Assembly (NCBI GenBank): GCA_964399295.1
Contig: CAYNQD010000001.1
Location: 7,013 to 71,012, forward strand
From: an uncultured Candidatus Saccharibacteria bacterium
GTDB taxonomy: Bacteria; Patescibacteriota; Minisyncoccia; Phycocordibacterales; UBA918
DNA length: 64,000 bases
Direction: 5' to 3'
Shown here: piece by piece, positions 9,917 to 29,793 of the stretch
Numbering within the stretch: the stretch's first letter is position 1
How the letters are laid out: each line of letters begins with the position of its first letter
The notes under the pieces: model-generated
Seen by the model: the letters and a program-made list of their open reading frames with translations, nothing else
Databases searched by the model: none
What the model was told of the DNA's origin: nothing
Translations under genes and position numbers: made by a program

Positions 9917-9944
9917 TTGCTAAAATATACATATTTGTTATAGT
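9917..9944 (+). promoter_or_regulatory. Sigma-70-type promoter for rpmE-prfA
   Basis: TTGCTA, 16-nt spacer, TATAGT, ending about 12 nt upstream of the rpmE ATG. Confidence 0.4.
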
Positions 9945-9955
9945 GTGGCACACAT

Positions 9956-10228
9956 ATGAAAGCTGAAATTCATCCAAAAAATTATCGACTGGTTATCTTC
10001 CATGATAACTCAAGCGGCGAGCGTTTTCTTATCGGTTCAACCATCAAGACCAACGCTACCGACAAATGGAGTGATGGTGTTGAGTACCCTATTACACGTG
10101 TAGACGTATCCAGCGCTTCTCATCCTTTTTATACTGGTCAGGAGAAGGTTATGGATACGGCAGGTAGAGTGGAAAGGTTTAAAGCCAGAGCCGCGCAGAC
10201 TGTCACTAATAGAAAGAAGAAAGGTTAA
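9956..10228 (+). CDS. rpmE: 50S ribosomal protein L31, type B (no Cys zinc ribbon)
   Basis: [10 protein letters not shown]... start typical of L31. No CxxC pairs, so it is the zinc-independent paralog type. Confidence 0.88.
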
Positions 10229-10231
10229 TGA

Positions 10232-10279
10232 AAAAGACTACTACCATATTGGATACCAATATGGTAGTAGTCTTTTAGT
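10232..10279 (+). terminator. Rho-independent terminator/attenuator after rpmE
   Basis: 18-bp perfect stem agactactaccatattgg / ccaatatggtagtagtct followed by TTTT. Confidence 0.65.
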
Positions 10280-10300
10280 GTATGCGGTAAAATTATACCT

Positions 10301-11278
10301 ATGGAATTTAACGAAGAAGAAATACAGGCTTTTCGCGAAAATCAAAAAACTCAGTTTTTGGCCAGTCAATTTGATGAGTTGCACAAAAAGCAGCTTGAGT
10401 CTGAGGAGATGGCAAATGATCCGGAAATGGCTTTGTTGGTACGGGAGGAGGTTGATTCTTTAGAATCGCAAAAGCAAAACCTTCTCAGTGAGATGCGAAG
10501 GATAGTGGAGTCGGCGAAAGAGGAGGATGAGAAACCCTACGGCGTGGTCTTGGAGGTGAGGGCCGGTGCCGGTGGCGATGAAGCGGCTCTGTTTGCCGAG
10601 GAGCTGGCTTCAATGTACACGACTTACGCCAGTTTGAATGGATGGCTGGTTTCGGTTGAACACGAATCAAGGTCAGCAGCCGGCGGCTATAAAGAAGCTG
10701 TCTTTGAAATCATTCATCAAAAAGCTTATCAAAAATTCCGTTTTGAAACCGGAGTTCATCGCGTGCAGCGCATTCCGGTAACGGAAAAGGCTGGTCGTAT
10801 TCATACCTCGACCGCCTCAGTTGCCATATTGCCTTTGCGCAAAAAGCCGACTATTGAGATTAGTCCCAGCGATATCGTGATGGAATTTTCTCGCTCTGGC
10901 GGTGCCGGCGGGCAAAACGTAAACAAAGTGGAAACAGCCGTTCGCTTGGTCCATACGCCGACCGGAATTGAGGTTCGTAGCCAAAGCGAACGTTCGCAGC
11001 TTAAAAATCGAGAGAAGGCGATGAGTATTTTAGTAGCAAAATTGGAAGCGGCGCACGATGAAGACGAAGCAAAAAAACATGCCTCAGAAAGAAAAAACCA
11101 AATCGGAACCGGTGACCGCTCAGAAAAAATAAGAACCTATAATTTTCCACAAAATCGGATAACCGACCATCGTATTAAAGTATCATGGCACAACATAGAA
11201 GGTGTCATGAATGGGCAGCTGGATCCGATTTTTGACGCGATTGATGATGTGTTGAAAGGAGAGCAGGTGGTTGCGTAG
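10301..11278 (+). CDS. prfA: Peptide chain release factor 1
   Basis: GGQ motif [21 protein letters not shown] tripeptide (RF1-type, not the SPF of RF2). 325 aa. Confidence 0.88.
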
Positions 11279-15031: not shown

Positions 15032-16174
15032 ATGCAACCAATCGTAAAACCTTTATCCAATCGGCACCGAAATTTTGTTTTTTTGGCTCTGATAATTATT
15101 TTTGTCATTAGTCTGCCGGCTTTTATTTTTTATTCAGTCGGCTACCGGTACAATTTTTTTGCTGAGGAACCGATAGTAACAGCTACAGGTGGTCTTTATA
15201 TCGCTTCAACCGCTACTGATAGTCAAATTTTTTTGAATGAAAAGGAGGTGGTCAACGCTAGGGTTTTTAGGAAAGCTTTGTATTTGCAGGGAATCGAACC
15301 CGGAGTGCATCGCGTCCATGTGCAAGCTGATGGCCTGCATACTTGGGTGAAAGATTTAATGGTCTATCCGCAAATAGTGACTGAAGCTGAGTCCTTTAAT
15401 CTGCCGCTGGTGCCGCGAGTACGGCCGGTGACTGAGTACGTGTCCAGCAAAAACGAACCTGTGTATTTTTCCATGGCTACTTCAACTTTTGATTTGTTTG
15501 CCAAAGCTTCCAATTCCGTTCCGATTATCCTATCAACATCTTCGGCTACCAGTACTGTACATAACAATCCAGAGTTCTTGCTTCTGGTTGAAATGTTTGA
15601 AGAAAAAGCTTCCACGACAGCAAGAAGGATTGTCTTGGAAGAAGTAGAAAAAACAAATAAATTTGGCTTTGCCACTGTCACCCCAGAGGTGAAAATTGAT
15701 GAGGAACAGGCCACCAGTACAGTTGTTCAAGATAGAATCATGCTTTATAAACAAGGAGAGGATATTTTTGCCCAGGCTCTAGGGACTGGCAGGCAGGTGC
15801 CGCATTATTTTTGCACAACACAATTATCCACCACCTCAAAAGACGCGCTTGAACTTATGTCTGGTTTGGATAATGATTATTTTGAAACCGATATTTTGGA
15901 TGTAAGTAATGAAAACTTGTGCCGGAGTGATATTCTGATAAATCGCCAAGGAGAAAAAGTTCATGATTTCAATTTCTTCCCCGGTAATACCAATTTGGTT
16001 TTGATGCGTCTTGATAGTGGCCTTTACGTGGTAGAGATAGACGACAGAGCTTGGCAAAACACGCAGCTTCTCTATGGTGGTGAAGATATAGAGATGCTAA
16101 TTTATGGAAACAATATTTTTTTAAGAGACAATGGTTTTATCTTTGAGGTTTTACCGGCTATAATTGGCAGATAA
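15032..16174 (+). CDS. Membrane-anchored protein with PEGA-like beta-sandwich domain
   Basis: N-terminal TM helix. The segment IEPGVHRVHVQADGLHTWVKDLMV resembles the PEGA-domain consensus. Immediately downstream of the GT2 synthase and overlaps the pheS start by 11 nt. Confidence 0.4.
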   Translation: MQPIVKPLSNRHRNFVFLALIIIFVISLPAFIFYSVGYRYNFFAEEPIVTATGGLYIASTATDSQIFLNEKEVVNARVFRKALYLQGIEPGVHRVHVQADGLHTWVKDLMVYPQIVTEAESFNLPLVPRVRPVTEYVSSKNEPVYFSMATSTFDLFAKASNSVPIILSTSSATSTVHNNPEFLLLVEMFEEKASTTARRIVLEEVEKTNKFGFATVTPEVKIDEEQATSTVVQDRIMLYKQGEDIFAQALGTGRQVPHYFCTTQLSTTSKDALELMSGLDNDYFETDILDVSNENLCRSDILINRQGEKVHDFNFFPGNTNLVLMRLDSGLYVVEIDDRAWQNTQLLYGGEDIEMLIYGNNIFLRDNGFIFEVLPAIIGR

Positions 16175-16910
16175 ATTAAATAATATTATGGAACAAGAAA
16201 AAGGTCATCAACATCCAATCTCCAATTTGATAGCGGAGATAAATGATATTTTTGCAAAAATCGGCTTTGAGCTGGTGGATGGTCCGGAAGTGGAAACCGA
16301 ACACTACAACTTTGATAGGCTAAACGTGCCAAAAGATCACCCTTCACGCGACATGCAGGATACTTTTTGGTTGAGCAACGATGACGTGTCCGTGCCGACC
16401 GTACTGAGAACGCACACCTCTCCCGTACAAGCTCGTTACATGGAAAGTCACCAGCCACCGATTCGCATTATCGTGCCGGGTAAAGTTTTTAGAAATGAGG
16501 CCACGGACGCGACTCACGAAGCGCAATTTTTCCAGCTTGAGGGTTTGTACGTGGATAAGGATGTTAGTCTGGGACATCTAAAAGGCACTCTTGAATACTT
16601 TTTATCTAAATTATTTAAGGGCAAAACCGAAATTCGTTTTCGTCCCAGCTATTTTCCTTTTGTTGAACCGGGACTTGAAGTGGATATGCGGATGCTGGAA
16701 GGTGAGAGTAAGCTGGTCGGCAGGTGGGTGGAAATCATGGGTGCCGGAATGGTCCATCCGAATGTTTTGCGGGCTTCCGGCATAGACCCTAATATCTATA
16801 GCGGGTTTGCTTTTGGAGTCGGTGTTGATCGCTTGGCTATGATGCGACACGGCATTGACGACGTTCGTCTTTTTTACACCGGAGACTTGCGTTTAATTAA
16901 TCAATTTTAA
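16164..16910 (+). CDS. pheS: Phenylalanine--tRNA ligase alpha subunit (short form)
   Basis: Class II aaRS motifs FRPSYFPFVEPGLEVD and GAGMVHPNVL...GFAFGVGVDRLAMM. 248 aa. Confidence 0.9.
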   Translation: MADKLNNIMEQEKGHQHPISNLIAEINDIFAKIGFELVDGPEVETEHYNFDRLNVPKDHPSRDMQDTFWLSNDDVSVPTVLRTHTSPVQARYMESHQPPIRIIVPGKVFRNEATDATHEAQFFQLEGLYVDKDVSLGHLKGTLEYFLSKLFKGKTEIRFRPSYFPFVEPGLEVDMRMLEGESKLVGRWVEIMGAGMVHPNVLRASGIDPNIYSGFAFGVGVDRLAMMRHGIDDVRLFYTGDLRLINQF

Positions 16911-16920
16911 AAATTTTAGT

Positions 16921-18855
16921 ATGCTCGTTTCTTATAATTGGTTAAAGGATTATTTGGGTAAAGACATTCCTCCGGTAAATGAACTAACCGAACTTCTAAC
17001 CACCCACTCTTTTGAGATTGAGGAAGTCACCGCGCTTGCGGGGGATACTTTAATTGACGTGAAAATACTGCCGGATAGAGCGGGGGATTGTTTGTCGCAT
17101 CGTGGTGTTGCCAGAGAAGTGGCGACTTTACTGGCTTTGCCTTTGGTCTTTGATCCGCTTAGTGAAGAAATAATTTTAGACAAAAGCAATGATTTTTTAA
17201 TAACCATAGAAAATGCGCAAGATTGTTCTAGGTTCGCGGCGGCGTTGCTGACGGATATTAAAATTGCTCCATCGCCACAATGGTTGCAAGACAGACTGGC
17301 TACTATCGGACAAAAATCAATCAATAATATTGTTGATGCTACCAATTATGTCATGTACGCTCTTGGTCAGCCGATGCATGCTTATGATGCCGATTTATTT
17401 TCAAAGACCGCTGATAATAAGTGGCACTTTCTTATCAGAAAAGCAAATGTTGGAGAGACGATAGCTTTATTAAAAGACAGCGCCGCTACTGGCACTCGCG
17501 AAATCAAACTAACCGGTTCCGAGCTCCTAATCGTTGACGGAACCAAAAATCTACCAATTGGTCTAGCCGGAATAAAAGGAGGAGAATACGCCAGTATAAA
17601 TAATGCCACCAAAAATATTATCATAGAAGCAGCTAATTTTAATTCAGTCTTAATCAGACAGACAGCCAGAAAGCACGGTATAAATACCGATGCCGTAAAA
17701 CGTTTTGAAAATAAACCTTCCGTAGCCCTACCGCCCTTGGCTATAAATTATATAGTTAAATTGATAAAAGAAATTGCCGCCGGTAATTGCGAAGGGATGT
17801 TTGATTCCTACCCAAAGCCTAGTAATCAAGAAGCGATTTTGGTGAGGACAGATAAAGTGAATAAGGTTTTGGGATTGTCGTTAGCAGATAATGAAATAAA
17901 ATTAATTCTGGAAAGATTGGGTGCTGAGGTCAAGGGCGCGGAAAATGGTTTTCTTGTAAAGGCACCAATGGAACGCAGTGATTTAAATCTTGAAGTTGAT
18001 TATATTGAAGAAGTGGGGCGAATCTATGGTTTGGACAGGATTGTATCAATTATCCCCACGAAGTTGCCTTTACCGAAGGTCAATGCCAATTATTTTTACA
18101 GTCAAGCCATTCGTTCGCTTTTATTGGCAGAAGGGTTTTCCGAAATAATGACTTCTTCTTTTCGCGATCAAGATGAAGTAAAATTACAAAACGCTTTGGC
18201 TAGTGACAAGGGTTGTTTGCGGTCTTCTATTGTTCCTGGTTTGCAAGCGGCTTTAATGTCCAATGCGCAAAATATTGATATTCTGGGATTGCGTGAAATT
18301 AAAATCTTTGAAATCGGTAAGGTGTTTGGCAAAGGGCCGGGTGAAGTAAACGAACGCCTGTCTCTGGTACTTGGTGTACAAACCAAAAAAACCGGCTATT
18401 CTCCAATCGACGATAAGATTTTGGGTGAAGTCTTAGAAAAGTTGCGCGTCATTGGTGTCGGCGTAAATTCGGTAGTCGAAAAAGGGAAGTGTGAAATCTT
18501 CTTGAATGATGCTTTGAAGAATTTGCCGTTACCAACCGAGTACGATTCTTTTTCTTATGACAGCGATATTATTTATAAACCTTTTTCCTCCTATCCGGTG
18601 ATTGTGAGGGATATAGCGATTTGGGTGGAAGCAACCATGACAAAAGAGGAAGTAGTAGCAATAATAAATGAAGCGGCCACTCCGCTTTGCGTGAAAATAA
18701 CCTTATTTGACGAATTTCCTAAAGACGGTCGCGTTTCCCGTGCCTTTAGGTTGGTTTTTCAATCCTTTGAAAAAACTTTAACCGATGACGAAGTGGAACC
18801 AATCATGGATGAGGTTTACAAAGCGGTAAAAGCAGCTGGATTTGAGACTAGGTAA
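16921..18855 (+). CDS. pheT: Phenylalanine--tRNA ligase beta subunit (short form lacking N-terminal tRNA-binding domain)
   Basis: Follows pheS. B3/4 and B5 domain-like regions. C-terminal FDX-ACB-like domain. 644 aa. Confidence 0.88.
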   Translation: MLVSYNWLKDYLGKDIPPVNELTELLTTHSFEIEEVTALAGDTLIDVKILPDRAGDCLSHRGVAREVATLLALPLVFDPLSEEIILDKSNDFLITIENAQDCSRFAAALLTDIKIAPSPQWLQDRLATIGQKSINNIVDATNYVMYALGQPMHAYDADLFSKTADNKWHFLIRKANVGETIALLKDSAATGTREIKLTGSELLIVDGTKNLPIGLAGIKGGEYASINNATKNIIIEAANFNSVLIRQTARKHGINTDAVKRFENKPSVALPPLAINYIVKLIKEIAAGNCEGMFDSYPKPSNQEAILVRTDKVNKVLGLSLADNEIKLILERLGAEVKGAENGFLVKAPMERSDLNLEVDYIEEVGRIYGLDRIVSIIPTKLPLPKVNANYFYSQAIRSLLLAEGFSEIMTSSFRDQDEVKLQNALASDKGCLRSSIVPGLQAALMSNAQNIDILGLREIKIFEIGKVFGKGPGEVNERLSLVLGVQTKKTGYSPIDDKILGEVLEKLRVIGVGVNSVVEKGKCEIFLNDALKNLPLPTEYDSFSYDSDIIYKPFSSYPVIVRDIAIWVEATMTKEEVVAIINEAATPLCVKITLFDEFPKDGRVSRAFRLVFQSFEKTLTDDEVEPIMDEVYKAVKAAGFETR

Positions 18856-18873
18856 ATTTATATTACTTACTCC

Positions 18874-19548
18874 CTACTCCCCCAAAAACTCAAACGAATC
18901 CAGCACCATTTGCCACTGGTCAGCAAAAATCGAAGGTTCTTCAAAGCCGAGGGTGACGGTAAGGTCTATCCAGTATTTATCATCTATTAAAATAAAATAA
19001 CCTTCAGTTGGTACGGTAGAGAAGGTTACTCCATGAAAATGAATGGCTGGTTTGTTAAATATCTCTACGTCACTGAAACGATAGTGGGGATTGGTGGTTT
19101 TCAGAACCTTTTCTATCCAGTACTTGGGGGTGATGTTGATTCCAATGGTGTCAGGATAACGTTTACCGGCTTTTGGATTAATTGTAACATTAAACAAGCT
19201 GACACCACTTCCAAAGGAGCCCTCATCAACTTGCCAGTCTTTTGGATAATCAAACTTAAACCCCCAGATTGTATTGATGTATGTATTGTATTCGGTGTGC
19301 TCTTCTATGTGTCCAGGGGCTTGGTCTGAGAATCCAAGACCATAACCCCAATTCTCTTTCTTGAGTTTATTCTCTATGTAAGCGTGGTCTTTGAATTGCT
19401 CCGTCGTGGAAGTTGATTGTGGTACTGATTCCGGCAGGGACTCATCTATTTTTCCATTTCCGGTTTTTTGTTGCATAAAAAAATATAAACCGACCGCGAC
19501 TAACGCACTAGCCAGAAAAGTCAGAAATATTTTTTGAGATGGCTTCAT
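18874..19548 (-). CDS. Membrane-anchored secreted protein, paralog A of a duplicated family (conserved FKDHAYIENKLKKENWG)
   Basis: N-terminal signal anchor MKPSQKIFLTFLASALVAVGLYFF. Shares long identical peptide and nucleotide stretches with the plus-strand gene at 21593-22278. Confidence 0.5.
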   Translation of the reverse strand: MKPSQKIFLTFLASALVAVGLYFFMQQKTGNGKIDESLPESVPQSTSTTEQFKDHAYIENKLKKENWGYGLGFSDQAPGHIEEHTEYNTYINTIWGFKFDYPKDWQVDEGSFGSGVSLFNVTINPKAGKRYPDTIGINITPKYWIEKVLKTTNPHYRFSDVEIFNKPAIHFHGVTFSTVPTEGYFILIDDKYWIDLTVTLGFEEPSIFADQWQMVLDSFEFLGE

Positions 19549-19596
19549 TGTGTATAGTTTAGCATAATCAAAAAGGGGAAGTGCTAGACTAAAACG

Positions 19597-19887
19597 ATGA
19601 AAACTATTATTTTGGCAACGTTTTTTAGTTTAATTTTCTTACCCAGTTATTCTTTGGCTGATAGTGAAGAAAGTTGCGGGGATCTGGTTTATATATACTT
19701 TGATGAGGATGCTCAGCAAAACGAAGAATCTCGAGAACCAATTACAAATTGCTCCAAACCCTTTACGTCACTTTTTTACGGTGATTCCACTTATACAGAA
19801 GACCAAACGCCGGTGCAAGTGGTGTTGGACGACCAGGAAGTTCTACCTGGTGGTCAAATAGACATAAATGGAGAATTAGCCGACTAA
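19597..19887 (+). CDS. Small secreted protein (96 aa, signal peptide, acidic)
   Basis: Signal peptide MKTIILATFFSLIFLPSYSLA. Divergent from paralog A. Upstream of the NlpC/P60 gene. Confidence 0.4.
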   Translation: MKTIILATFFSLIFLPSYSLADSEESCGDLVYIYFDEDAQQNEESREPITNCSKPFTSLFYGDSTYTEDQTPVQVVLDDQEVLPGGQIDINGELAD

Positions 19888-20009
19888 CTTTCCCTGACGG
19901 CAGGGAAGGATATGATTTTAGTTTATACAAAAAAGTCGGGCCGGATTATTATCACGTTGTCATATCGTCGATTGGTTTAGGTGGTTATGAAGACAGTGCG
20001 GTTGTTGCT

Positions 20010-21596
20010 TTGGAAAATAAATATTATTTTTCGGTTTTAGGATTAAAGGTAAACTACAGTGCCTTCTTTAGAGCTTTTGCCTGGTTGAAAAACATACTCT
20101 CGTATGAATATCATCACGTCAACAATTTTGAAAATAATTTTGCGGCTTATACTACAGAATTAGACCCTGCCTCAGAATATTATTTTGTCATCAATGCTCC
20201 ACTAATGGTTACCAAAAAGTCTATAAAAGATTTATTTATATACACAGCTCTAGCGGCACCAAACAATTATGTTCTTAAATTTTTCACTTCGGGAACTCCT
20301 CCGGAGACAGAAGAAGTTCTTCCCGAGACTGTGTTTGAAGTGGATGAAGAATATCAGCTAGAGCAAATGAGCGAATCCGCCCGCGCGGCGGTAGCACAAA
20401 AAGCCGCTGACTTGGCGACGGAGTTGGTGGCCGATGAGGATAATCGAGCAGAGTATTTGTGGAATGGAAAAGGCTGGGATTATGGACTGGGTGAATTTGT
20501 CCCGCCCACTAAAATTCTGTCCGGCTATCGAGCCTATGCCAATGACAGCGAGGACAAGCTGGGTCTGGATTGTTCAGGTGTCATTACCTGGGCCTTTAAT
20601 CGGGCCTTTGACCCTAAACTGCGAACAGTTGATAATTTTATAAAATATGTCAGTTCGTTGCAGCAATTTGCCGGCCCACAGTCTGATCCTGTAAGTGAGG
20701 ATGAATTGCTACCAGGTGATGGACTTTTCTTTGATTTTGCGGTGGGTGGAAACGATATTGATCATGTGGCGATGTATGTGGGGGATCAGGGGACTTATGA
20801 TATTGTTTCTGCAGCTGACGAAAATAGAGGGGTTGTGCGAGCAAATCTGAATATTTATAAAAATTTAAATGAGTTCAAAGACTTCCGTCGCTTCCACCCT
20901 GGCGATGTAGAAATGAAAATCGAGACTGGTTCTCCCGTCAACCTCATCGTCCAAGACCCGGATGGCAACACTCTCTCGTACGAAGATGTTGAAGTCACGG
21001 AGTTTGAATCCCTACGCGGTATTCCTGGAGAAATGTATTATCTGGAAATGGAGCAAGGTCACGACGGTCGGCCGGTAGATATCGTCTACGGGCCAAAAGC
21101 CAAGTCGGGAATCTATAACATCGTGGTAGTGCCGGATGAGACCGCCGCTCCAAGTGATACCTATTCACTAGTGGTAACTATCCAAGGCCAGACTAAAATT
21201 CTGGCCACCAATGAGCCGATTGGGGATGTGTCTATCCCGAAGCCATTTCAATTTATGGTGGTAGATAAAAAGGTTAATCCGGAGATAGTCATTCCGACAC
21301 AGCCATCAACCCCAACACAAAAAACATCACGCAAATCTTCCGGTAATAGAATCATCACCACACCGATCACAACCAGCTACAACCTATCTGTCTTGCAAGG
21401 TCACTTTGACCAAGAAATCATTATCAGTAACTATCAGTGGCAGCTAAAGAACATTCCCGCCCCCGCTCTATACAGAAGCTCACTACTCTTGAATCAAACC
21501 ACTCCGACCACGATTGAGCTTTTGCTATTCAGCAACGGCACGTTATCTAACCCGCAAATATTTATGAGAAAGAATAACAAAATTGAACCACTATGA
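20010..21596 (+). CDS. NlpC/P60-family cysteine peptidase (peptidoglycan endopeptidase-like) with C-terminal beta-sandwich domains
   Basis: Catalytic Cys context GLDCSGVITWAF and His context DHVAMYVGDQG, typical of NlpC/P60. The called start is TTG with no ATG in the open upstream frame. No obvious signal peptide. Confidence 0.6.
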   Translation: MENKYYFSVLGLKVNYSAFFRAFAWLKNILSYEYHHVNNFENNFAAYTTELDPASEYYFVINAPLMVTKKSIKDLFIYTALAAPNNYVLKFFTSGTPPETEEVLPETVFEVDEEYQLEQMSESARAAVAQKAADLATELVADEDNRAEYLWNGKGWDYGLGEFVPPTKILSGYRAYANDSEDKLGLDCSGVITWAFNRAFDPKLRTVDNFIKYVSSLQQFAGPQSDPVSEDELLPGDGLFFDFAVGGNDIDHVAMYVGDQGTYDIVSAADENRGVVRANLNIYKNLNEFKDFRRFHPGDVEMKIETGSPVNLIVQDPDGNTLSYEDVEVTEFESLRGIPGEMYYLEMEQGHDGRPVDIVYGPKAKSGIYNIVVVPDETAAPSDTYSLVVTIQGQTKILATNEPIGDVSIPKPFQFMVVDKKVNPEIVIPTQPSTPTQKTSRKSSGNRIITTPITTSYNLSVLQGHFDQEIIISNYQWQLKNIPAPALYRSSLLLNQTTPTTIELLLFSNGTLSNPQIFMRKNNKIEPL

Positions 21597-22278
21597 AAAA
21601 ACTAATTATCGTTGGAGTTATGGTGTGTCTAGCTTTGGTCGTGGCTTTTGTTTTCCTAAAAAACCCATCCCCAATCACGTCACCAATTTCTGAACCGGAA
21701 CCAATACCAGTAGAGGAAAATGTTGTTGACACTAATACAGACACCGACCCTAATCCCTTCAAAGACCACGCTTACATAGAAAATAAGTTGAAGAAAGAGA
21801 ATTGGGGTATAAAATTTAGTGATGATCCCATTGGCTATGTCGAGGAACATGCGGAGTACAATACTTATATCAATAACATCTGGGGGTTTAAATTCAATTA
21901 TCCAAAAGACTGGATTCTAAAAGAACCTGGTTTTATGAATAACGCCAGCCTTTTTACATTAAACATAAATCCTCAGCCTCCACTGTATCCGGATACTATT
22001 TATTTGAATATTACGGAGAAGGAGTGGACAGATGAGATTATTGGGGAGTTAAACGAAATACCTCAACACTCAGTTAAAGCCACTACCTTTAAAAAAAACC
22101 AGCCCTCTTTAAAACCGGTCTAATGTTTAATGCTATTCCAACCGAAGGTAGATTTATACTGATAGACAATAAATATTGGATCAGTCTCACTGTAACCCTA
22201 GGCTTCGACACTCCTTCCGAATACGCTGATGAGTGGCAAATGGTCTTGGATTCGTTTGAGTTTTTGGGGGAGGAATAA
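21593..22278 (+). pseudogene. Paralog B of the FKDHAYIENKLKKENWG family, interrupted by a frameshift at an A8 homopolymer (22091-22098)
   Basis: Frame 2 ORF 21593-22123 ends at TAA. The downstream frame 1 segment (22123-22278: MFNAIPTEGRFILIDNKYWISLTVTLGFDTPSEYADEWQMVLDSFEFLGEE) is colinear with the C-terminus of paralog A (TVPTEGYFILIDDKYWIDLTVTLGFEEPSIFADQWQMVLDSFEFLGE). Frame 1 opens just after the A8 run. Confidence 0.55.
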
Positions 22279-22392
22279 AGGGTGAAATAAGTGTTTTTCT
22301 GCCAGAACAGCTGGTTTTTTGTCCAAGAAAAAGCCAGACAAGAATCCCATTATCTGCTATAATGGCTTGTATTTTATAGTTAATAATTCAGC

Positions 22393-24462
22393 ATGACAGA
22401 CAAAAAAGAAAAAAAGAAAGGCACCTATGACGCTTCATCTATTTCAGTTTTAGAGGGCCTTGATCCGGTGCGAAAACGTCCTGGAATGTATATTGGTACT
22501 ACCGGTATTGATGGTCTCCATCACCTGATTGGGGAAGTCTTTGACAACTCACGGGACGAGGCCATGGGCGGCTTTGCCAATAGAGTGGAAGTAGCGCTTT
22601 TACCCGATGGTTATGTGCGAGTAGTTGACAATGGTCGGGGTATTCCGGTTGATGTTCACAAACAGACGGGCGTATCGGCCTTGGAAACTATCCTCACAGT
22701 ACTGCATGCTGGCGGAAAATTTGGCGGCAAGGATAGTGGTTATAAAGTCTCGGGGGGATTGCATGGAGTGGGTGTGTCGGTTATGAATGCGCTATCAACC
22801 CATGTGATTGCTGAAGTTCACCGTGATGGCGGATATTTTATCCAAGAGTACAATATCGGCGTTCCAAAATATAAAGTTAAAAAAGTTGGTCCTTCAAAAC
22901 TACAGGGGACTATTATTACCTTTAAAGCTGACCCTACCATTTTCCCAGACACGACCTATGATTTTAAACGCATTGTAAATCATTTGCGCCAGCAAGCGTA
23001 CTTGGTTAAAGCCATGAGGTTGTCGGTAATTGACGCGCGAGGCCTGAGTGAAGCTGAGCAAAAAAAGCTGGATTTAAAAGGCAAACAGTATCTAAGCGAT
23101 GATCGTCTGGAAGTGCCACATCAACATTTTTATTTCGAAGGCGGACTTCGTTCTTTGGTAGCTTTTAATAACCACTATCAAAAGGCTGTTCACAAAAATA
23201 TATTTTATGTTGAGAAAAATGACATTGACAGCGTGGTATTGTCGGTAGAAGTAGCATTGCAATATGTCGATGATATCTCTTCACGTATTTCCGCTTTTGC
23301 CAACAACATCTACAATCCCGAACACGGAACCCACATTACCGGTTTCAAAACCGCTCTTACTCGTACTCTCAACAATTACGCTCGAAAAAATAATTTCTTC
23401 TCGGTAAAAGATAAAGACACGGGCTTTACCGGCGATGACGTACTTGAGGGGATTACGGCGGTGGTTTCGGTGAAGATGCCGGAGATTCAGTTTGAAGGGC
23501 AGACTAAAGCCAAGCTTGGTTCGGTTGAAGCTAGAAGTGCCGTGGAGTCGGTTTTTGGTGAGGCTTTCTCGACTTATTTAGAGGAAAATCCGGATGATGC
23601 CAAAGCGATTATAAATAAGGTTATAATCGCCGTAAAAGCGCGCAAAGCCGCTAAAGCCGCTAAAGACAGCGTGCTTAGAAAGGGCGCTCTGGAAGGCATG
23701 TCTTTGCCTGGAAAATTGGCGGATTGTCAGAGCAAAAAGGCTGAAGATTCTGAACTCTTTATAGTAGAGGGGGATTCGGCCGGTGGATCGGCTAAGATGG
23801 GACGAGACAGGAAAACCCAGGCCATACTGGCTTTGCGCGGAAAAATTTTAAATGTCGAGCGAGCGCGTATTGATAAAATGTTAGCTTCTGAACAAATCAA
23901 AAATGTGGTTATAGCGCTCGGTACAGCTATTGGTGATGTCTTTGATATCTCGCGCTTGCGCTACCATAAGATAATTATTGCCACGGACGCGGATGTGGAC
24001 GGCGCGCATATCAGAACATTGCTTCTAACACTGTTTTATCGTTACTTCAAACCATTGGTTGACGGTGGCTTTATTTACATAGCGCAACCACCACTTTATA
24101 AAATCCAGAGAGGGAAGGAGTTGCGATATGCTTTTTCCGATGAGGAAAAATTCCAGAAGTTAAGCGAGATGGGGGTGGTAGCTGAGGAAGAAGTGTCCGA
24201 AGAAGATGAAGCCGAAGATGAGACGGAGACAGTAAAGAAAAATTCAAAAGTGAGGATTCAGCGTTATAAAGGTTTGGGAGAAATGAATGCAGATGAGCTT
24301 TGGGAGACAACGATGAATCCGGAATTTAGGATTTTGAAACAGGTAACGATTGATGATGTTATTATCGCTGATAAGGTATTTGATATCTTGATGGGTACCG
24401 ATGTTTCCAGTCGCAAATCTTTTATTCAGTCTAATGCCAAAATGGCCAATCTGGATATTTAA
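22393..24462 (+). CDS. gyrB: Type IIA topoisomerase B subunit (DNA gyrase subunit B / ParE family)
   Basis: GHKL ATPase motifs GLHHLIGEVFDNSRDEAMGG and GLHGVGVSVMNALS. Toprim EGDSAGGSAKMGRDR. C-terminal tail domain. No A subunit adjacent. Confidence 0.85.
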   Translation: MTDKKEKKKGTYDASSISVLEGLDPVRKRPGMYIGTTGIDGLHHLIGEVFDNSRDEAMGGFANRVEVALLPDGYVRVVDNGRGIPVDVHKQTGVSALETILTVLHAGGKFGGKDSGYKVSGGLHGVGVSVMNALSTHVIAEVHRDGGYFIQEYNIGVPKYKVKKVGPSKLQGTIITFKADPTIFPDTTYDFKRIVNHLRQQAYLVKAMRLSVIDARGLSEAEQKKLDLKGKQYLSDDRLEVPHQHFYFEGGLRSLVAFNNHYQKAVHKNIFYVEKNDIDSVVLSVEVALQYVDDISSRISAFANNIYNPEHGTHITGFKTALTRTLNNYARKNNFFSVKDKDTGFTGDDVLEGITAVVSVKMPEIQFEGQTKAKLGSVEARSAVESVFGEAFSTYLEENPDDAKAIINKVIIAVKARKAAKAAKDSVLRKGALEGMSLPGKLADCQSKKAEDSELFIVEGDSAGGSAKMGRDRKTQAILALRGKILNVERARIDKMLASEQIKNVVIALGTAIGDVFDISRLRYHKIIIATDADVDGAHIRTLLLTLFYRYFKPLVDGGFIYIAQPPLYKIQRGKELRYAFSDEEKFQKLSEMGVVAEEEVSEEDEAEDETETVKKNSKVRIQRYKGLGEMNADELWETTMNPEFRILKQVTIDDVIIADKVFDILMGTDVSSRKSFIQSNAKMANLDI

Positions 24463-25738: not shown

Positions 25739-26428
25739 ATGAGCGACCAACCAAGCAAAAGGACAACCATTGATTTAATTATAGAAAAAAAGGTGCCTTT
25801 CGTGTGCGTTTTTTTTGTAGTTTTTTTGATAACCTATGCTTTTTTAGCATGGATTGATTTTTTACCGGAGCCGGTATCTTCAAGTCCGGAAACGGAAGAA
25901 ATAAAAGTAGATATAAATACTGAAGAAGAAACAATTGAAAATGAAGAGGTGTCAATAACTGAACCGGAAATAATAATGGTTGAAAATATCTTACCCGAAA
26001 AAATTATTTTTGATTCCCTTGACCGTACTGTTTCCGTTTTAAATCCAACTTCAAAAACCATTGCAGACTTAGACCATGCCTTGTTGAGTGGAGTGGTAAG
26101 GCACCCAGATTCAGCTACTTTGGAGCAATTAGGTTCAGTCTTTATTCTTGGTCATTCAAGTTATTTACCGGCTGTAAATAATGAAAATTATAAGGCTTTC
26201 AACGGCATTCAAAATCTAAAATGGGGAGATACCATAAGATTGCAGGCCGGTAACAAAGAGTATGTCTATCGCGTTGATAAAGTATTTCAAGCTTATGCTA
26301 CGACCGCCAGCGTACCAATCGCGGTAGGAAAACAGCGTTTGGTATTGGCTACGTGCAACAGTTTTGGGTCGGTAGATGATCGTTATATTGTTGAAGCTGA
26401 TTTATTGGAGGTGAGAGCGGTGTCGTAA
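25739..26428 (+). CDS. Sortase-family transpeptidase (membrane-anchored)
   Basis: N-terminal TM helix. Catalytic triad contexts VFILGHSS (His), RLVLATCNS (TLxTC-like Cys motif) and DRYIVEAD (Arg). Confidence 0.7.
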   Translation: MSDQPSKRTTIDLIIEKKVPFVCVFFVVFLITYAFLAWIDFLPEPVSSSPETEEIKVDINTEEETIENEEVSITEPEIIMVENILPEKIIFDSLDRTVSVLNPTSKTIADLDHALLSGVVRHPDSATLEQLGSVFILGHSSYLPAVNNENYKAFNGIQNLKWGDTIRLQAGNKEYVYRVDKVFQAYATTASVPIAVGKQRLVLATCNSFGSVDDRYIVEADLLEVRAVS

Positions 26429-26661: not shown

Positions 26662-29600
26662 ATGAAATTTTTGAAAAAATTAACACCATATTTTTTGGTT
26701 TTGGCTTTGATAGTCAATATTTTTAATTTTGGATCATATGATCCGCAGAATGAACTAGGGTCTCTAAATCCGGGATTAGCTTTGGCGACTTCAACTTTTG
26801 GAACCTCAGGTTTGGAAACTCCAAGTTTGGAAACTCCAAAATTATCTGCGGATAATTTTGGAGAAATTGAACAGTCATCTTTTTCCAGCAACATGTCTTT
26901 TTCCGGCGGAACGACTTTAAATTTGTTGAAACAGGAAAGTAGTAATTCTTCAAGCCAGTCAAGTCATTCGTACCACAGTGATAAATTTGTTGGTACTTGT
27001 AATATTTCTGCCAATGTTGAACAGGTTTCTTTTGGTTCTGACGTTGTCATCAGTTGGTCAACTGCAGGTTTTTCCAATGTCACGATAAATGGAGTGTCTG
27101 TGAGCAATTCCGGCACCAAGACTTTCTATAATATAGAGGAAAATACCACCTACACCCTAGTGGCTAAATCTGAAAATGGTAAATCAAATTGTACCTCAGC
27201 TATCGTGGTAAAGTGTTTGCCAAAGCCACCAGTGCCACCGGCACCCCGAACTCCAACTTGTACTCTCACTCCAGTCACTAAGACCATACATAGCGGCGAA
27301 AGCGTAGATTTGGTTTGGACAACTACCAATTCTTCTAATGCTACTCTAACTGATTTTGGTGATGTGGATTTAAATGGAACCAAGAATACCGACGTACTAA
27401 CTGAGGGCAAGGAATATACTTTGGAGGTTTTGGGATTTAATGATGATACCGTAACTTGCAGCTCAAAGATAACAGTAAAACCAAAGCCAACACCGGTTCC
27501 AACTTGTGATTTGTTTACTGTAACACCAAATAGTATTGTGCGTGGCAATTCGTCTGAGTTGGTGTGGAAGACAAGCAACGCTACGCGCGTGGCCATCAAT
27601 AATGGAATTGGCGAGGTAGAAGCTACTGGTAAGTTGTCTGTTAAGCCTTTGGCTACGACTGAATATGTGATGACAGTTTTTGGAGCTAATAATAAAAAAG
27701 CTACCTGTAAGCAAACTTTGACTGTGACGGAACCTCCGGTTGTTAAGGTGCCGATGTGTCTTACTTTTAACGCGACACCTTTTGCTTTGCCTTTTGGCGG
27801 CGGTCAGTCGGAAATAAAATGGACAACTGAGAATGCTACTAAAGTTGTAATTAGCGGAATTGGCGAGGTGACAGTCAATGGCTCAAAGACAGTGAATATT
27901 TCAGAAACTACTACTTACACTTTGATCGCTTCTGATTCTAAAAAGAAACATTCTTGTTTTGTAACAATTGATGTGGAACCGGAATTGCCGCCTCCAACCC
28001 CGCCTCCAACTTGTACTCTAACTCCAGCCACCAAAAATATAACTAGCGGCGAAAGCGTAGACTTGGTTTGGACAACTACCAACGCCACCAATGCTTATCT
28101 AACTGATTTTGACAGCGTGGAGCTAAACGGCACGAAGAACACTGGCGCTTTGACGGAAGGCAAGGAATATACTTTAGAGGTTTTGGGGATGAATGACGAA
28201 GCTATAACCTGTACTTCCAAAATTAGCTTGAGTACTTTGCCGCCTACTCCAACTCCAATTTCTTGTAGCGCCAATGTAAGCTTGTCGGCTAATCCAAGCA
28301 GTATTACTCGTGGTAATTCAACTACTATTACTTGGAGTACGACCAATATTACCGGATTGAGTTTTGATAATGGTATCAACTCAACCAGTACTAGCGGTTC
28401 GGTAACTGTTTCTCCAACCAGCAATACCACTTATTCCTTAACTGCGACTGACGGAAAAGATACGATAGTTTGTCCAGTGCCAGTGACTGTCAATAATCCA
28501 CCAACTACAACTGGTGGTGGAGGTGGCGGCGGCGGTTCATCAGCACCAACTTGTGAACTAAATATATCTGATAGAAAAATAAAACGAGGTGAGGACATCA
28601 GACTTAATTGGGACAGCAACCGAGCAACTGATTTGACTATTATTGACGGTACCGGCAAAGTGTTGGTAACAACTAAAAATAAATTAAGCCGCGATAAGGA
28701 CGAACTCTTTAGAGGTGCAATGACTCTAATTCCGACTGCTAATACTACTTACACCATGACCGTGGAAAGAGGTTCACAAGATCGGGTCTGTACAGCTAGT
28801 GTGGAAATAGAAGGTAGTACCGTGGTGGTGACGCAAATACGAGACCAGCAGCCTTTAATCGCTAGCATCTCCTTAGTGGACGTACCATATACCGGTTTTG
28901 AGGCTGGTCCAATTCTAACTGTGTTGTTTTACACGCTATTGATGCTTTGGGCTTTGTACATTGCTTACTTGTGGGTGATTCGTAGGAATCCCAACGGCGA
29001 CTTTCAGTTAGCCATGCCAGAAAATATCGTCGCTTCTAATATCAAAACTGTAGGTGAAGTTATCCGTCCTGATGTCTTTGTGGCTAAGGTGCAGGTTCCG
29101 GAACGAAACTTGGAAACGATTGTTCCAGCTAATTTACCAGTTGGTAATCCGGTGGTTGGTTATGCTAGTCAAGATGACACAAAAGCACAGGTGACAGCAA
29201 ATTTACATTCAGTAGATGATGAAGCGGCTACTCAGATTGAAAATTACGCGCATTCACAGCATGTTCTATTATCGAGCGATGCTATCCGTCATTTTGTTGC
29301 TACGACTAATAATTCCGAAGAACGAGTAATGGCTCTTAATCAAATCATGGCAGCTAGCAAGGCTCAATTTCCGGCAGAGGATGGTTGGATTGTTATTAAT
29401 GAAAAGCGAATGAGGGACTTGTGTGAGGTTTGTTCTGTTAATCAGATCAGCGCAAATGATGTTCCTTATATCCCAACCGTTATTCCTGAAGGCGCTGGCT
29501 CTTTGGCCGAAGCGATCGTGACTGGCAATATTGTCGCTGCTTACGAACTTATTGGACATCGTCCAATGTTTGCTTTGGCGGACGCGGCGGCAGACTTGGA

Positions 29601-29793
29601 TTCTGTGTACCGAGTGCGCCGTGGCGGAAAGGAGGTTATTTCTGATTTGCTTATTAAGGAAACAGAAAAACTAACTGATGAGCAACTCGTGGCTATGATT
29701 GGAGCTTTGACCGGAGCTCTTGATGGCACTTACAATGATGAAGCTTCAGCCGTGAAAATGGCCATTATGAAGGCGGTGAAGGTGGTGGCGTAA
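26662..29793 (+). CDS. Giant surface protein: signal peptide, about 7 Cys-bracketed Ig-like domains, poly-Gly linker, LPxTG-like VPYTG + TM + RRN segment, then a ~270-aa C-terminal domain
   Basis: Signal peptide MKFLKKLTPYFLVLALIVNIF. Repeated ~80-aa modules each beginning (P)TC and ending xC...V. GGGGGGGGSS linker. VPYTG at 28882-28896 is followed by a 22-aa hydrophobic helix and RRN. The C-terminal domain lacks TM segments. Confidence 0.6.
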   Translation: MKFLKKLTPYFLVLALIVNIFNFGSYDPQNELGSLNPGLALATSTFGTSGLETPSLETPKLSADNFGEIEQSSFSSNMSFSGGTTLNLLKQESSNSSSQSSHSYHSDKFVGTCNISANVEQVSFGSDVVISWSTAGFSNVTINGVSVSNSGTKTFYNIEENTTYTLVAKSENGKSNCTSAIVVKCLPKPPVPPAPRTPTCTLTPVTKTIHSGESVDLVWTTTNSSNATLTDFGDVDLNGTKNTDVLTEGKEYTLEVLGFNDDTVTCSSKITVKPKPTPVPTCDLFTVTPNSIVRGNSSELVWKTSNATRVAINNGIGEVEATGKLSVKPLATTEYVMTVFGANNKKATCKQTLTVTEPPVVKVPMCLTFNATPFALPFGGGQSEIKWTTENATKVVISGIGEVTVNGSKTVNISETTTYTLIASDSKKKHSCFVTIDVEPELPPPTPPPTCTLTPATKNITSGESVDLVWTTTNATNAYLTDFDSVELNGTKNTGALTEGKEYTLEVLGMNDEAITCTSKISLSTLPPTPTPISCSANVSLSANPSSITRGNSTTITWSTTNITGLSFDNGINSTSTSGSVTVSPTSNTTYSLTATDGKDTIVCPVPVTVNNPPTTTGGGGGGGGSSAPTCELNISDRKIKRGEDIRLNWDSNRATDLTIIDGTGKVLVTTKNKLSRDKDELFRGAMTLIPTANTTYTMTVERGSQDRVCTASVEIEGSTVVVTQIRDQQPLIASISLVDVPYTGFEAGPILTVLFYTLLMLWALYIAYLWVIRRNPNGDFQLAMPENIVASNIKTVGEVIRPDVFVAKVQVPERNLETIVPANLPVGNPVVGYASQDDTKAQVTANLHSVDDEAATQIENYAHSQHVLLSSDAIRHFVATTNNSEERVMALNQIMAASKAQFPAEDGWIVINEKRMRDLCEVCSVNQISANDVPYIPTVIPEGAGSLAEAIVTGNIVAAYELIGHRPMFALADAAADLDSVYRVRRGGKEVISDLLIKETEKLTDEQLVAMIGALTGALDGTYNDEASAVKMAIMKAVKVVA
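27256..27480 (+). repeat. Intragenic direct repeat copy 1 (Ig-like domain 2) of surface protein
   Basis: About 80% nucleotide and 85% amino-acid identity to 28009-28233 (TCTLTP..SGESVDLVWTTTN...LTEGKEYTLEVLG...TCxSKI). Confidence 0.7.
28009..28233 (+). repeat. Intragenic direct repeat copy 2 (Ig-like domain 5) of surface protein
   Basis: Near-identical to 27256-27480, separated by about 750 bp within the same ORF. Confidence 0.7.

What the first reader, a model, noticed from the sequence alone, without database searches (positions are those of the whole stretch)
18874..22278. NlpC/P60 peptidase cassette flanked by inverted paralogous secreted proteins
Two genes encode membrane-anchored secreted proteins of the same family. 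They share the identical peptide FKDHAYIENKLKKENWG and a colinear C-terminus ...TEG(Y/R)FILID(D/N)KYWI.LTVTLGF...QWQMVLDSFEFLGE. They lie in inverted orientation, 18874-19548 on minus and 21593-22278 on plus. Between them sit a small signal-peptide protein and an NlpC/P60 cysteine peptidase with extra beta-sandwich domains. The shared stretches are also nearly identical at nucleotide level (ttcaaagaccacgcttacataga; aagaaagagaattgggg). This points to recent duplication or gene conversion and creates inverted repeats able to flip the peptidase segment. The layout resembles a peptidoglycan-hydrolase effector with cognate binder/immunity-like partners. A parasitic or episymbiotic small-genome bacterium could use this for host or self cell-wall remodelling. 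I do not recognise it as a described system.
Basis: partly seen in the sequence, partly recalled or inferred. Interest (0 to 1): 0.65.

Follow-up and report, generated by a model that had tools for sequence, protein, structure and literature searches.

The report
Decaying cell-wall hydrolase and partner cassette
This is a broken, inserted copy of a two-gene unit found across the tiny-genome Patescibacteria: a secreted cell-wall-cutting enzyme followed by a membrane-anchored partner protein. The copy itself is ordinary debris, but the conserved enzyme-partner pairing seems undescribed and may help explain how these bacteria manage their cell walls.

Summary
Paralog B (21593-22278) is frameshifted at an A8 run. 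The "small signal-peptide protein" is the N-terminus of the NlpC/P60 hydrolase, cut off by a 1-nt deletion at 19877/19878. A second strain (98.9% identical) keeps that site intact but has a 2-nt deletion inside the catalytic domain.

The paralogs are N-terminally membrane-anchored proteins with a PsbP/Mog1 fold. In 21 of 22 informative Patescibacteria loci, this type of hydrolase is followed directly, on the same strand, by one to three such partners. All four sampled partner relatives sit right after such a hydrolase. The conserved unit is therefore hydrolase then partner. The inverted upstream copy A occurs only here.

The whole ~3.5-kb cassette is an insertion. In two close relatives pheT abuts gyrB, and two others carry unrelated cargo at that junction.

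I found no evidence for segment inversion: five assemblies are colinear, A and B share 59% nucleotide identity, and exact matches are at most 26 nt. Short-patch gene conversion is plausible.

My best reading is an accessory, decaying copy of an undescribed Patescibacteria-wide module. The partner's role, restraining or docking the enzyme, is inferred and not shown.

The parts
18866..22329 (.). Inserted cassette of about 3.46 kb between pheT and the gyrB promoter. It is absent from the two closest relatives that have long contigs.
   Evidence: DNA homology to L096 and L097 ends at window 18855-18865 and resumes at 22330-22350. In those genomes only 60-72 nt (a terminator hairpin) separate the two points. 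L098 and L099 carry unrelated cargo at the same junction.
18874..19548 (-). Paralog A: intact 224-aa membrane-anchored PsbP-fold protein. It has a TM helix at aa 3-28, a disordered linker, a helix at aa 53-64 (the shared FKDHAYIENKLKKENWG peptide), and an alpha/beta domain at aa 79-222 (18883-19314).
   Evidence: ORF. AlphaFold2 model with mean pLDDT 85 and above 90 in the domain. Foldseek top hits are PsbP and CyanoP at E about 1e-5 to 1e-4. 36 of 44 relatives match Pfam PsbP_2. Identical in five assemblies.
19597..21596 (+). NlpC/P60 (C40) peptidoglycan hydrolase gene, disrupted. The ancestral product is 666 aa with signal peptide MKTIILATFFSLIFLPSYSLA|DSEE.
   Evidence: Reconstruction. Full-length homologs P0007, P0004 and P0005 span the break. 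Strain L001 has the fused reading frame at this site.
19877..19878 (+). Site of a 1-nt deletion (a G is present in strain L001). It creates a premature stop at 19885-19887 and separates the signal peptide from the catalytic part.
   Evidence: Alignment of the window with L001. The site is not in a homopolymer. L002-L004, from three other sequencing runs, are identical here.
20541..20789 (+). NlpC/P60 catalytic domain. Cys is at 20571-20573, His at 20763-20765, and Asp at 20799-20801 just beyond. Strain L001 carries a 2-nt deletion at 20693-20694, between the Cys and His codons.
   Evidence: Pfam PF00877 E=3.6e-7. C326 and H390 are invariant and D402 is conserved in at least 90% of 23 homologs. 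Coordinates. L001 deletion. PDB sequence hits include 6BIQ, 8IDC and 2K1G.
21593..22278 (+). Paralog B: the canonical downstream partner. Its start overlaps the hydrolase stop (ATGA, 21593-21596). It is frameshifted into 176-aa and 51-aa pieces.
   Evidence: The same frameshift is present in strain L001. Its position and strand match the partners in other Patescibacteria loci.
22091..22098 (+). A8 homopolymer where B's frame breaks. Nine As, or a -1 slip, would restore a 228-aa protein.
   Evidence: Sequence. The repaired protein aligns end to end with A. No stimulatory RNA structure lies downstream (z=-1.06).
19345..19395 (.). Left arm of the best inverted repeat (51 nt, 92%). The partner arm is 21758-21808. 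It encodes the shared helix peptide.
   Evidence: At all 6 sites where B differs between strains in this patch, the window's B equals A. Identical codons occur at 12/15 identical-aa sites here against 44/92 elsewhere, Fisher p=0.026.
22301..22363 (+). Terminator-like hairpin plus T-run (22301-22315), followed by a gyrB promoter-like site (22335-22363). These mark the end of the cassette and the resumption of the backbone.
   Evidence: The layout matches the pheT terminator and gyrB promoter of L096 and L097.

Best explanation
The locus is a lineage-specific insertion of about 3.5 kb at a variable junction between pheT and gyrB, in a small-genome Patescibacterium of the Paceibacteria/Parcubacteria type.

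It carries a copy of a two-gene module that is widespread in Patescibacteria. The first gene encodes a Sec-secreted NlpC/P60 (C40) peptidoglycan endopeptidase. The second gene overlaps the first gene's stop and is probably translationally coupled. It encodes a protein with an N-terminal membrane anchor, a flexible Ser/Thr/Pro-rich linker and an extracytoplasmic PsbP/Mog1-fold domain. This genome also has a second, inverted copy of the partner (A) upstream.

Inferred mechanism: the partner sits on the outer face of the cytoplasmic membrane and binds the hydrolase as it emerges. It thereby restrains and/or docks the enzyme's activity on the cell's own wall.

In this genome the module is inactive and decaying. 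The downstream partner B carries a frameshift shared by both known strains, so that lesion is the older one. The hydrolase was then broken independently in each strain, by a 1-nt deletion here and by a 2-nt deletion in the catalytic domain in L001.

Shown: the gene anatomy, the fold, the conserved pairing, the insertion and the frameshifts. Inferred: physical binding, the direction of control, and loss of function.
For: - Anatomy and frameshifts.
- Independent assemblies agree: L002-L004 are 99.985-100% identical to the window, and L001 is 98.9% identical.
- Catalytic residues are conserved, and Pfam and PDB matches confirm the domain.
- Partner fold: AlphaFold2 pLDDT 85; Foldseek hits to PsbP, CyanoP, 3LYD, Apa, EagT6, Tsi3 and DcrB; 36/44 relatives match PF18933; 37/44 have an N-terminal hydrophobic anchor.
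- Conserved pairing: a partner ORF abuts the hydrolase stop on the same strand in 21/22 informative Patescibacteria loci, with 1-3 tandem copies. None occurs in 56 non-Patescibacteria loci that share only the catalytic core.
- Reverse test: 4/4 sampled partners lie downstream of such a hydrolase, with 4-8 nt overlaps. L086-88 and L100 show the same.
- No third conserved neighbour.
- Insertion.
- Taxonomy: GyrB is 89-90% identical to Ca. Nomurabacteria and Paceibacterota.
Against: - No direct evidence shows that the partner binds the hydrolase. I had no complex-prediction tool.
- Whether the partner inhibits, anchors or activates is undetermined.
- Paralog A is intact and identical in all assemblies, so part of the cassette may still be used.
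- The A8 frameshift could be partly rescued by polymerase or ribosome slippage.
- I could not check whether the genome holds a second, intact pair outside the window, so 'redundant accessory copy' is an inference.
- The protein-search tool failed to list known self-hits (compare), so absences in that tool are weak evidence.
Confidence: 0.6

Rival explanations
1. Offensive effector plus immunity. The secreted NlpC/P60 enzyme is a weapon against the wall of a host or competitor bacterium. The membrane-anchored PsbP-fold proteins are cognate immunity proteins that protect the producer. Extra partner copies would form an immunity array.
For: - The gene order is effector then partner, with overlapping stop and start codons.
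- The partner, but not the hydrolase, has duplicated repeatedly. There are 1-3 copies, and within-genome pairs are 39-65% identical.
- Concerted evolution or gene-conversion patches are seen.
- The immunity protein Tsi3 is among the structural neighbours (E=6e-3).
- The module is mobile and accessory: it sits in different contexts with no conserved neighbours and occupies an insertion hotspot here.
- The order of decay fits relief of self-toxicity: the partner broke first, then the hydrolase broke independently in two strains.
Against: - The hydrolase core is unusually well conserved across distant Patescibacteria classes, at 40-52% identity. That pattern is more typical of a housekeeping autolysin than of an arms-race toxin.
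- The hydrolase carries only a Sec signal peptide. No delivery apparatus or delivery domain was detected.
- The Tsi3 similarity is weak. PsbP, a scaffold protein, is the better match.
- No host or target is known.
Confidence: 0.25
2. The cassette is still functional. B is expressed through transcriptional or ribosomal slippage, or phase variation, at the A8 run. The split hydrolase fragments retain some activity.
For: - The break lies exactly in an A8 homopolymer within an A_AAA_AAC context.
- The downstream 51-aa segment has no further lesions and remains 76% identical to A.
- Poly(A) slippage is known to rescue frameshifted genes in reduced genomes. This is my own knowledge (Tamas et al. 2008) and was not checked here.
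Against: - Both strains and all five assemblies show A8, so no length variation is seen.
- There is no stimulatory RNA structure.
- Homologs elsewhere are single ORFs.
- The hydrolase lesions are not in slippery sequence. In this strain the lesion separates the signal peptide from the catalytic domain. In L001 it separates the catalytic Cys from the His.
Confidence: 0.1
3. One reading: the inverted paralogs act as recombination arms that flip the hydrolase segment, like a shufflon or inverton. An inversion with its crossover upstream of the A8 run would place an intact B-N/A-C chimera behind the hydrolase.
For: - Inverted homologous arms exist.
- Geometrically, a crossover upstream of 22091 would repair the downstream partner. 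This is inference only.
- Patchy A-to-B sequence exchange suggests the two copies do interact.
Against: - All five assemblies from four runs and two strains are colinear.
- Overall identity is 59%, and the longest exact matches are 26, 23 and 18 nt. From my own knowledge, that is at or below the minimal length for efficient RecA recombination.
- No ORF other than A, the hydrolase and B lies between pheT and gyrB, so the cassette carries no recombinase gene.
- The inverted layout is absent from all other loci.
Confidence: 0.03
4. The frameshifts are sequencing or assembly errors, and all genes are intact.
For: One of the three lesions lies in a homopolymer.
Against: - The same sequence was assembled independently from four runs.
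- Two of the three lesions are in non-repetitive sequence.
- The two strains carry different hydrolase lesions, and each is otherwise intact at the other strain's site.
Confidence: 0.02

Closest known systems
NlpC/P60 (MEROPS C40, Pfam PF00877) cell-wall endopeptidases, such as M. tuberculosis RipC (8IDC), E. coli Spr/MepS (2K1G) and Trichomonas NlpC_A1 (6BIQ)
   Same: The papain-like catalytic core has the DCSG cysteine and the DHVAMYVG histidine. The protein is secreted through a Sec signal peptide. These enzymes are typically multidomain.
   Different: The gene here is frameshifted. This Patescibacteria subfamily has a conserved extension of about 130 aa after the core, and variable N-terminal domains with no Pfam or PDB sequence match. 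Its conserved partner is a PsbP-fold protein. From my own knowledge, the known controllers are FtsEX, NlpI-Prc or IseA.
PsbP/Mog1p-fold proteins (Pfam PsbP_2 PF18933 and PsbP PF01789; PDB 4RTI, 2LNJ, 3LYD)
   Same: The fold matches: Foldseek probability 1.0, E about 1e-5 to 1e-4. Most family relatives match PF18933. These are extracytoplasmic protein-binding modules.
   Different: A and B themselves score below the Pfam cut-off, at 17-19 bits against 27. They have no link to photosynthesis. They are N-terminally membrane-anchored and genetically coupled to a wall hydrolase.
Tse3-Tsi3, the type VI muramidase effector and its immunity protein (PDB 3WA5, 4LUQ; PMC3792639)
   Same: A peptidoglycan hydrolase gene lies next to a small extracytoplasmic beta-sandwich protein of Mog1/PsbP-like topology that binds the enzyme.
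   Different: The structural similarity is weak (E=6e-3, TM about 0.47 on the target). The enzyme class differs: an endopeptidase here, a muramidase there. No T6SS is present. Inhibition was not tested here.
EagT6/EagR (DUF1795) effector-associated chaperones, and the PsbP/MOG1 genes in T6SS toxin loci (PMC3482391, PMC4524185)
   Same: A PsbP-like fold is encoded next to a toxin or effector gene.
   Different: From my own knowledge, Eag proteins are cytoplasmic chaperones for the transmembrane segments of PAAR/Rhs effectors. Here the partner is membrane-anchored with an external domain, and the hydrolase has a cleavable signal peptide and no TM segments.
Autolysins controlled by a dedicated membrane or envelope partner, such as FtsEX-RipC/CwlO/PcsB and NlpI-MepS (own knowledge)
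   Same: The concept is the same: a potentially lethal wall hydrolase is kept under control by a dedicated partner at the membrane.
   Different: The partner proteins are unrelated. Here the coupling is a simple two-gene unit with overlapping stop and start codons, and the partner is frequently duplicated.

Membership tests
NlpC/P60 (C40) peptidase | Pfam PF00877 match above the gathering score | tested here: met
   30.6 bits against a cut-off of 23, E=3.6e-7. The result is the same on the reconstructed protein.
NlpC/P60 (C40) peptidase | Catalytic Cys and His (plus a third polar residue) in conserved motifs | tested here: met
   C326 (LDCSG) and H390 (DHVAMYVG) are invariant, and D402 is conserved in at least 90% of the 23 sequences in alignment A4. 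Window codons are 20571-3, 20763-5 and 20799-801.
NlpC/P60 (C40) peptidase | An intact, exportable enzyme | tested here: not met
   A 1-nt deletion at 19877/8 separates the signal peptide from the catalytic part. Strain L001 has a 2-nt deletion between the Cys and His codons.
PsbP/Mog1 fold superfamily (Pfam PsbP_2 PF18933) | Pfam match above the gathering score | tested here: not met
   A scores 17.4 bits and B 18.9 bits against a cut-off of 27. However, 36 of 44 family relatives match at E<=0.01, with a best E of 1.1e-13.
PsbP/Mog1 fold superfamily (Pfam PsbP_2 PF18933) | An alpha/beta sandwich fold like PsbP | tested here: met
   The model has pLDDT above 90 in the domain. The top 11 Foldseek PDB hits are PsbP or PsbP-like subunits of photosynthetic complexes, at probability 1.0 and E of 1.6e-5 to 1.5e-4.
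Hydrolase effector / immunity pair (Tse3-Tsi3 type) | The immunity gene is adjacent to, and co-oriented with, the hydrolase gene | tested here: met
   21/22 loci, with 4-8 nt overlaps.
Hydrolase effector / immunity pair (Tse3-Tsi3 type) | The partner binds and inhibits the enzyme, and a delivery system exports the effector to other cells | not testable with these tools
   I had no complex prediction or biochemistry. Only a Sec signal peptide is seen, and there are no PADLOC or secretion-system matches.
Eag/DUF1795 effector chaperones | A cytoplasmic chaperone for effectors that have N-terminal TM segments | tested here: not met
   The partner has its own N-terminal TM anchor. The hydrolase has a cleavable signal peptide and no TM segment.
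Invertible DNA segment (inverton/shufflon) | Both orientations are observed, with near-perfect inverted repeats and an associated recombinase | tested here: not met
   Five colinear assemblies. The arms are 76-92% identical, and exact runs are at most 26 nt. The cassette has no recombinase ORF. Read-level data were not available.
Programmed -1 ribosomal frameshift gene | A slippery heptamer, a downstream stimulatory structure, and a frameshift conserved in homologs | tested here: not met
   An A_AAA_AAC context is present. The downstream fold has z=-1.06, and homologs are single ORFs.

The most novel reading that the evidence does not exclude
The membrane-anchored PsbP-fold proteins are a new class of dedicated cognate partners for C40/NlpC-P60 endopeptidases, acting as inhibitor, immunity protein or docking subunit. 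The hydrolase-partner pair would be conserved across Patescibacteria as a mobile two-gene unit. Repeated partner duplication and gene conversion would reflect specificity matching or an arms race, possibly tied to attack on or attachment to host cell walls in episymbionts. The decay order seen here would then be a natural knock-out experiment: the partner is lost first, and the hydrolase is inactivated independently in two strains. That order would indicate that the unpartnered enzyme is harmful.
Probability: 0.25. Interest if true: 0.65.

Novelty: new variant of a known kind. Interest (0 to 1): 0.4.

Why it matters
Little is known about how Patescibacteria (CPR bacteria) build, split and remodel their walls, or how they breach the walls of their hosts. 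A hydrolase with an almost obligatory genetic partner of a recognisable binding fold gives a concrete, testable pair for biochemistry and structure prediction. The pair is conserved across several candidate Patescibacteria lineages (Kaiser-, Wolfe-, Jorgensen-, Magasanik-, Portnoy-, Nomura- and Saccharibacteria-labelled MAGs). It would also add a new kind of partner to the list of NlpC/P60 controllers.

The locus in this window is mainly useful as a natural example of the module being acquired at an insertion hotspot and then decaying. It is not an active system.

Tried and rejected
- **Programmed frameshift at the A8 run.** The slippery context is present, but there is no downstream structure and homologs are unsplit. 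I rejected it as the main reading and kept it as a low-probability rival.
- **Invertible segment.** No alternative orientation appears in five assemblies, and the repeats are weak.
- **Phage lysin or defence system.** PHROGs matches only the NlpC/P60 domain of tail lysins. The partner has no phage match, and PADLOC gives nothing.
- **RNA elements.** Rfam finds only a tRNA-Thr in the window, far from the locus.
- **Eag-type chaperone.** The topology is wrong.
- **Third conserved component.** All-against-all clustering of neighbouring ORFs in 27 loci found none.
- **Word-index homolog search with A.** It gave only 3 hits and wrongly suggested an orphan family. The exhaustive profile search found 301 representatives.
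- **Metagenome locus scan.** The broad alignment failed, and the narrow alignment gave only 5 loci.
- **C-terminal hydrolase extension.** The 'beta-sandwich' claim is therefore untested.
- **Literature.** Searches combining PsbP with NlpC, CPR or Saccharibacteria with NlpC, and PsbP-like with endopeptidase found no description of this pairing. The library is incomplete, so this is not proof of novelty.

Full report
**Observation**

The region lies between pheS/pheT (16164-18855, +) and gyrB (22393-24462, +). Paralog A (18874-19548, -) is an intact 224-aa ORF.

The plus-strand copy B is not a single ORF. The interval 21593-22278 is 686 nt and reads as 176 aa (21593-22123) plus 51 aa (22123-22278) in another frame. 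The break is at an A8 run at 22091-22098. With one extra A, or a -1 shift, B becomes a 228-aa protein. That protein aligns end to end with A at 49% identity, E=4e-72, and includes the identical peptide FKDHAYIENKLKKENWG and the colinear C-terminus.

The inverted nucleotide matches are real but short:
- 51 nt at 92%, 72 nt at 82% and 135 nt at 76%.
- Exact runs of 26, 23, 18 and 17 nt.
- Overall identity of 59% across 654 aligned positions.

**The 'small signal-peptide protein' is part of the hydrolase**

Four metagenome contigs carry A. L002-L004, from three different runs, are 99.985-100% identical to the window. L001 is a second strain, colinear over 20.7 kb at 98.9% identity.

L001 has an extra G after window position 19877. 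This fuses the 96-aa ORF in frame to the NlpC/P60 ORF. Inserting that G gives a continuous 666-aa protein with a typical signal peptide. The full-length homolog P0007 (664 aa) aligns to residues 48-666, across the junction. P0004 and P0005 share the Cys-containing N-terminal region. The window strain therefore has a 1-nt deletion that cuts the signal peptide off the enzyme.

L001 in turn has a 2-nt deletion at 20693-20694. It lies between the catalytic Cys codon (20571-20573) and the His codon (20763-20765). Both strains share the A8 frameshift in B.

The order of events is therefore: B broke first, and the hydrolase then broke independently in each strain. Neither hydrolase lesion lies in a homopolymer, and the same sequences were assembled from several runs. 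Assembly error is unlikely.

**What the proteins are**

The hydrolase matches Pfam NlpC/P60 above its cut-off. C326 and H390 are invariant among 23 homologs, and D402 is nearly so. By sequence it hits solved C40 peptidases (6BIQ, 8IDC, 2K1G).

A and B individually give only sub-threshold PsbP_2 matches. An exhaustive profile search found 301 representative relatives, 49 of them at E<=1e-10. Most are 170-230 aa. Of the 44 best, 36 match PsbP_2, with a best E of 1.1e-13. Of the same 44, 37 have an N-terminal hydrophobic anchor.

With that alignment, AlphaFold2 gives a confident model (mean pLDDT 85, above 90 in the domain). It shows:
- a TM helix at residues 3-28;
- a disordered linker;
- a short helix at residues 53-64, which is the shared peptide;
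- an alpha/beta domain at residues 79-222.

Foldseek against the PDB returns PsbP, CyanoP, the uncharacterised 3LYD and M. tuberculosis Apa. Weaker hits are the T6SS chaperone EagT6, the muramidase immunity protein Tsi3, and DcrB. This is the PsbP/Mog1 fold, a general extracytoplasmic protein-binding module.

**The pairing is conserved, but not the inverted layout**

I scanned species-representative genomes with the hydrolase alignment. This returned 24 Patescibacteria-type loci, plus 56 loci from Acidimicrobiia and Gemmatimonas that share only the catalytic core.

A profile of the partner family was run over all six-frame ORFs of these loci:
- A partner ORF abuts the hydrolase stop, on the same strand, in 21 of the 22 loci where the contig continues past the hydrolase.
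- L005, L017 and L018 have two tandem copies, and L025 has three.
- No non-Patescibacteria locus has one.

In the reverse direction, four sampled partner relatives (P0052, P0054, P0055, P0057) all lie directly downstream of such a hydrolase, with 4-8 nt overlaps. L086-88 and L100 show the same arrangement. No other neighbouring gene recurs.

B, whose ATG overlaps the hydrolase stop (ATGA, 21593-21596), is thus the canonical partner. The upstream inverted copy A has no counterpart in any other locus. Within-genome partner copies are 39-65% identical and are closer to each other than to copies in other genomes. The two L005 copies share an identical N-terminus of about 100 aa. Partner duplication and homogenisation therefore recur.

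**The cassette is an insertion**

GyrB places the organism next to Ca. Nomurabacteria and Paceibacterota genomes, at 89-90% identity. In both of those (L096, L097) the backbone prfA-rpsB-tsf-...-GT2-380aa-pheS-pheT-gyrB-360aa-sortase-large surface protein-thrS is syntenic with the window. In them, however, pheT is followed by gyrB after about 130 nt that contain a terminator hairpin.

DNA homology to those genomes stops at window 18855-18865 and resumes at 22330-22350. Two further relatives carry unrelated cargo at the same junction, including methyltransferase, peptidase S51, RNase T, lactamase B and NUDIX genes. The junction is thus a variable hotspot, and the cassette of about 3.46 kb is accessory.

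The relatives keep their own hydrolase-partner pair elsewhere in the genome: L007 is on the same contig as L096, and P0011 is on the same contig as L097. That pair belongs to a different subfamily. The nearest full-length relatives of the window's hydrolase are only 34-36% identical, and the named one comes from a MAG labelled Saccharibacteria.

**Gene conversion and inversion**

Differences between the window and L001 are clumped. Within B they cluster in three places: the TM segment, the shared-peptide patch and the 3' end.

In the patch, window B equals A at all six positions where the two B alleles differ. Identical codons at identical-residue sites are enriched there: 12/15 against 44/92 elsewhere, Fisher p=0.026. 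This fits short-patch exchange between A and B, or allelic replacement in L001. It does not prove either.

Nothing supports inversion of the segment. All assemblies are colinear, the arms are short and imperfect, and the cassette carries no recombinase gene.

The A8 break has no downstream stimulatory structure. Rescue by slippage remains possible only at a low level.

**Mechanism**

The following are shown:
- a secreted C40 endopeptidase;
- a co-oriented, stop/start-overlapping gene for a membrane-anchored protein with an external PsbP-fold domain;
- near-universal pairing of the two in Patescibacteria;
- inactivation of the module in this lineage.

It is inferred that the partner binds the enzyme at the outer face of the membrane and restrains or docks it. 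Precedents for the fold include a hydrolase immunity protein (Tsi3; PMC3792639) and effector-associated adaptors (PMC3482391). High conservation of the hydrolase core across classes argues for a housekeeping autolysin with a control subunit. Partner duplication, mobility and the decay order argue for an immunity-like relationship.

**Novelty and verdict**

Four literature searches found no description of an NlpC/P60-PsbP-like pair. The general idea, a wall hydrolase with a dedicated partner, is well known. The particular partner family and its conservation across Patescibacteria appear to be new. The locus in the window is itself a degraded accessory copy. Interest is moderate at 0.4, and it rests on the conserved module rather than on the inverted-repeat layout that prompted the finding.

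Noticed in passing
window 18856-22392; L096 8870-9000; L097 8873-9000; L098 1-3021; L099 1789-6000: The pheT-gyrB junction is a variable insertion hotspot in this Paceibacteria clade. It is empty in two relatives. Two others carry unrelated cargo there, including methyltransferase, peptidase S51, RNase T, lactamase B and NUDIX genes. I saw no integrase, tRNA or flanking direct repeats, so the insertion mechanism is unknown.
   Followed up: partly
window 9000-10500, 21500-22500, 27000-28500: Differences between the window and strain L001 are strongly clumped: 20-32 per 500 nt in these stretches against 0-2 elsewhere. The stretches fall in an SLT_2-like 477-aa protein (with a 9-nt indel at 9897-9905), in paralog B, and in a 1043-aa repeat protein. 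This suggests recombination or diversifying surface proteins.
   Followed up: partly
window 26662-29793: A 1043-aa protein has five internal repeats. They match the part of the hydrolase family profile that, in alignment A4, holds the Ig-like N-terminal domain of other members. It has no Pfam match. It lies next to a sortase gene (25739-26428) and is probably a sortase-anchored surface protein.
   Followed up: no
L005 9992-11274: The two tandem partner genes of a Saccharibacteria-labelled MAG encode an identical N-terminal stretch of about 100 aa and divergent C-terminal halves. This indicates recent gene conversion or partial duplication in an independent lineage.
   Followed up: partly
L015 and L016 (contig JBBUDV010000002.1): One Patescibacteria contig carries two complete hydrolase-partner pairs about 22 kb apart. 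The whole module, and not only the partner, can therefore be duplicated.
   Followed up: no
L024 7950-7952: The hydrolase of this MAG has an in-frame TAG between two ORF pieces. This may be another pseudogenised copy, or a recoded stop.
   Followed up: no
L011, L021, L022, L023: The Patescibacteria-type hydrolase is on short contigs binned as Nanoarchaeota, Gammaproteobacteria, Chloroflexales and Ignavibacteriaceae. All but L022 also carry a partner gene. These are probably mis-binned contigs rather than true occurrences.
   Followed up: no
window 19888-19909: A 9-bp GC-rich hairpin followed by a T-rich tail lies immediately after the premature stop of the 96-aa fragment. It sits inside what was coding sequence in the intact gene. 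It could terminate transcription of the truncated gene, or it could be chance.
   Followed up: no
window 16164-16910: The pheS ORF is short: 248 aa as an ORF here and in strain L001, and 240 aa as called in relatives L096 and L097. From my own knowledge, typical bacterial PheS is about 330 aa. A short PheS seems to be a clade feature.
   Followed up: no
tool behaviour: The word-indexed protein search did not list the window's own hydrolase fragments (P0202, P0203), although they are in the collection. Absence of a hit in that tool is therefore not evidence of absence.
   Followed up: partly
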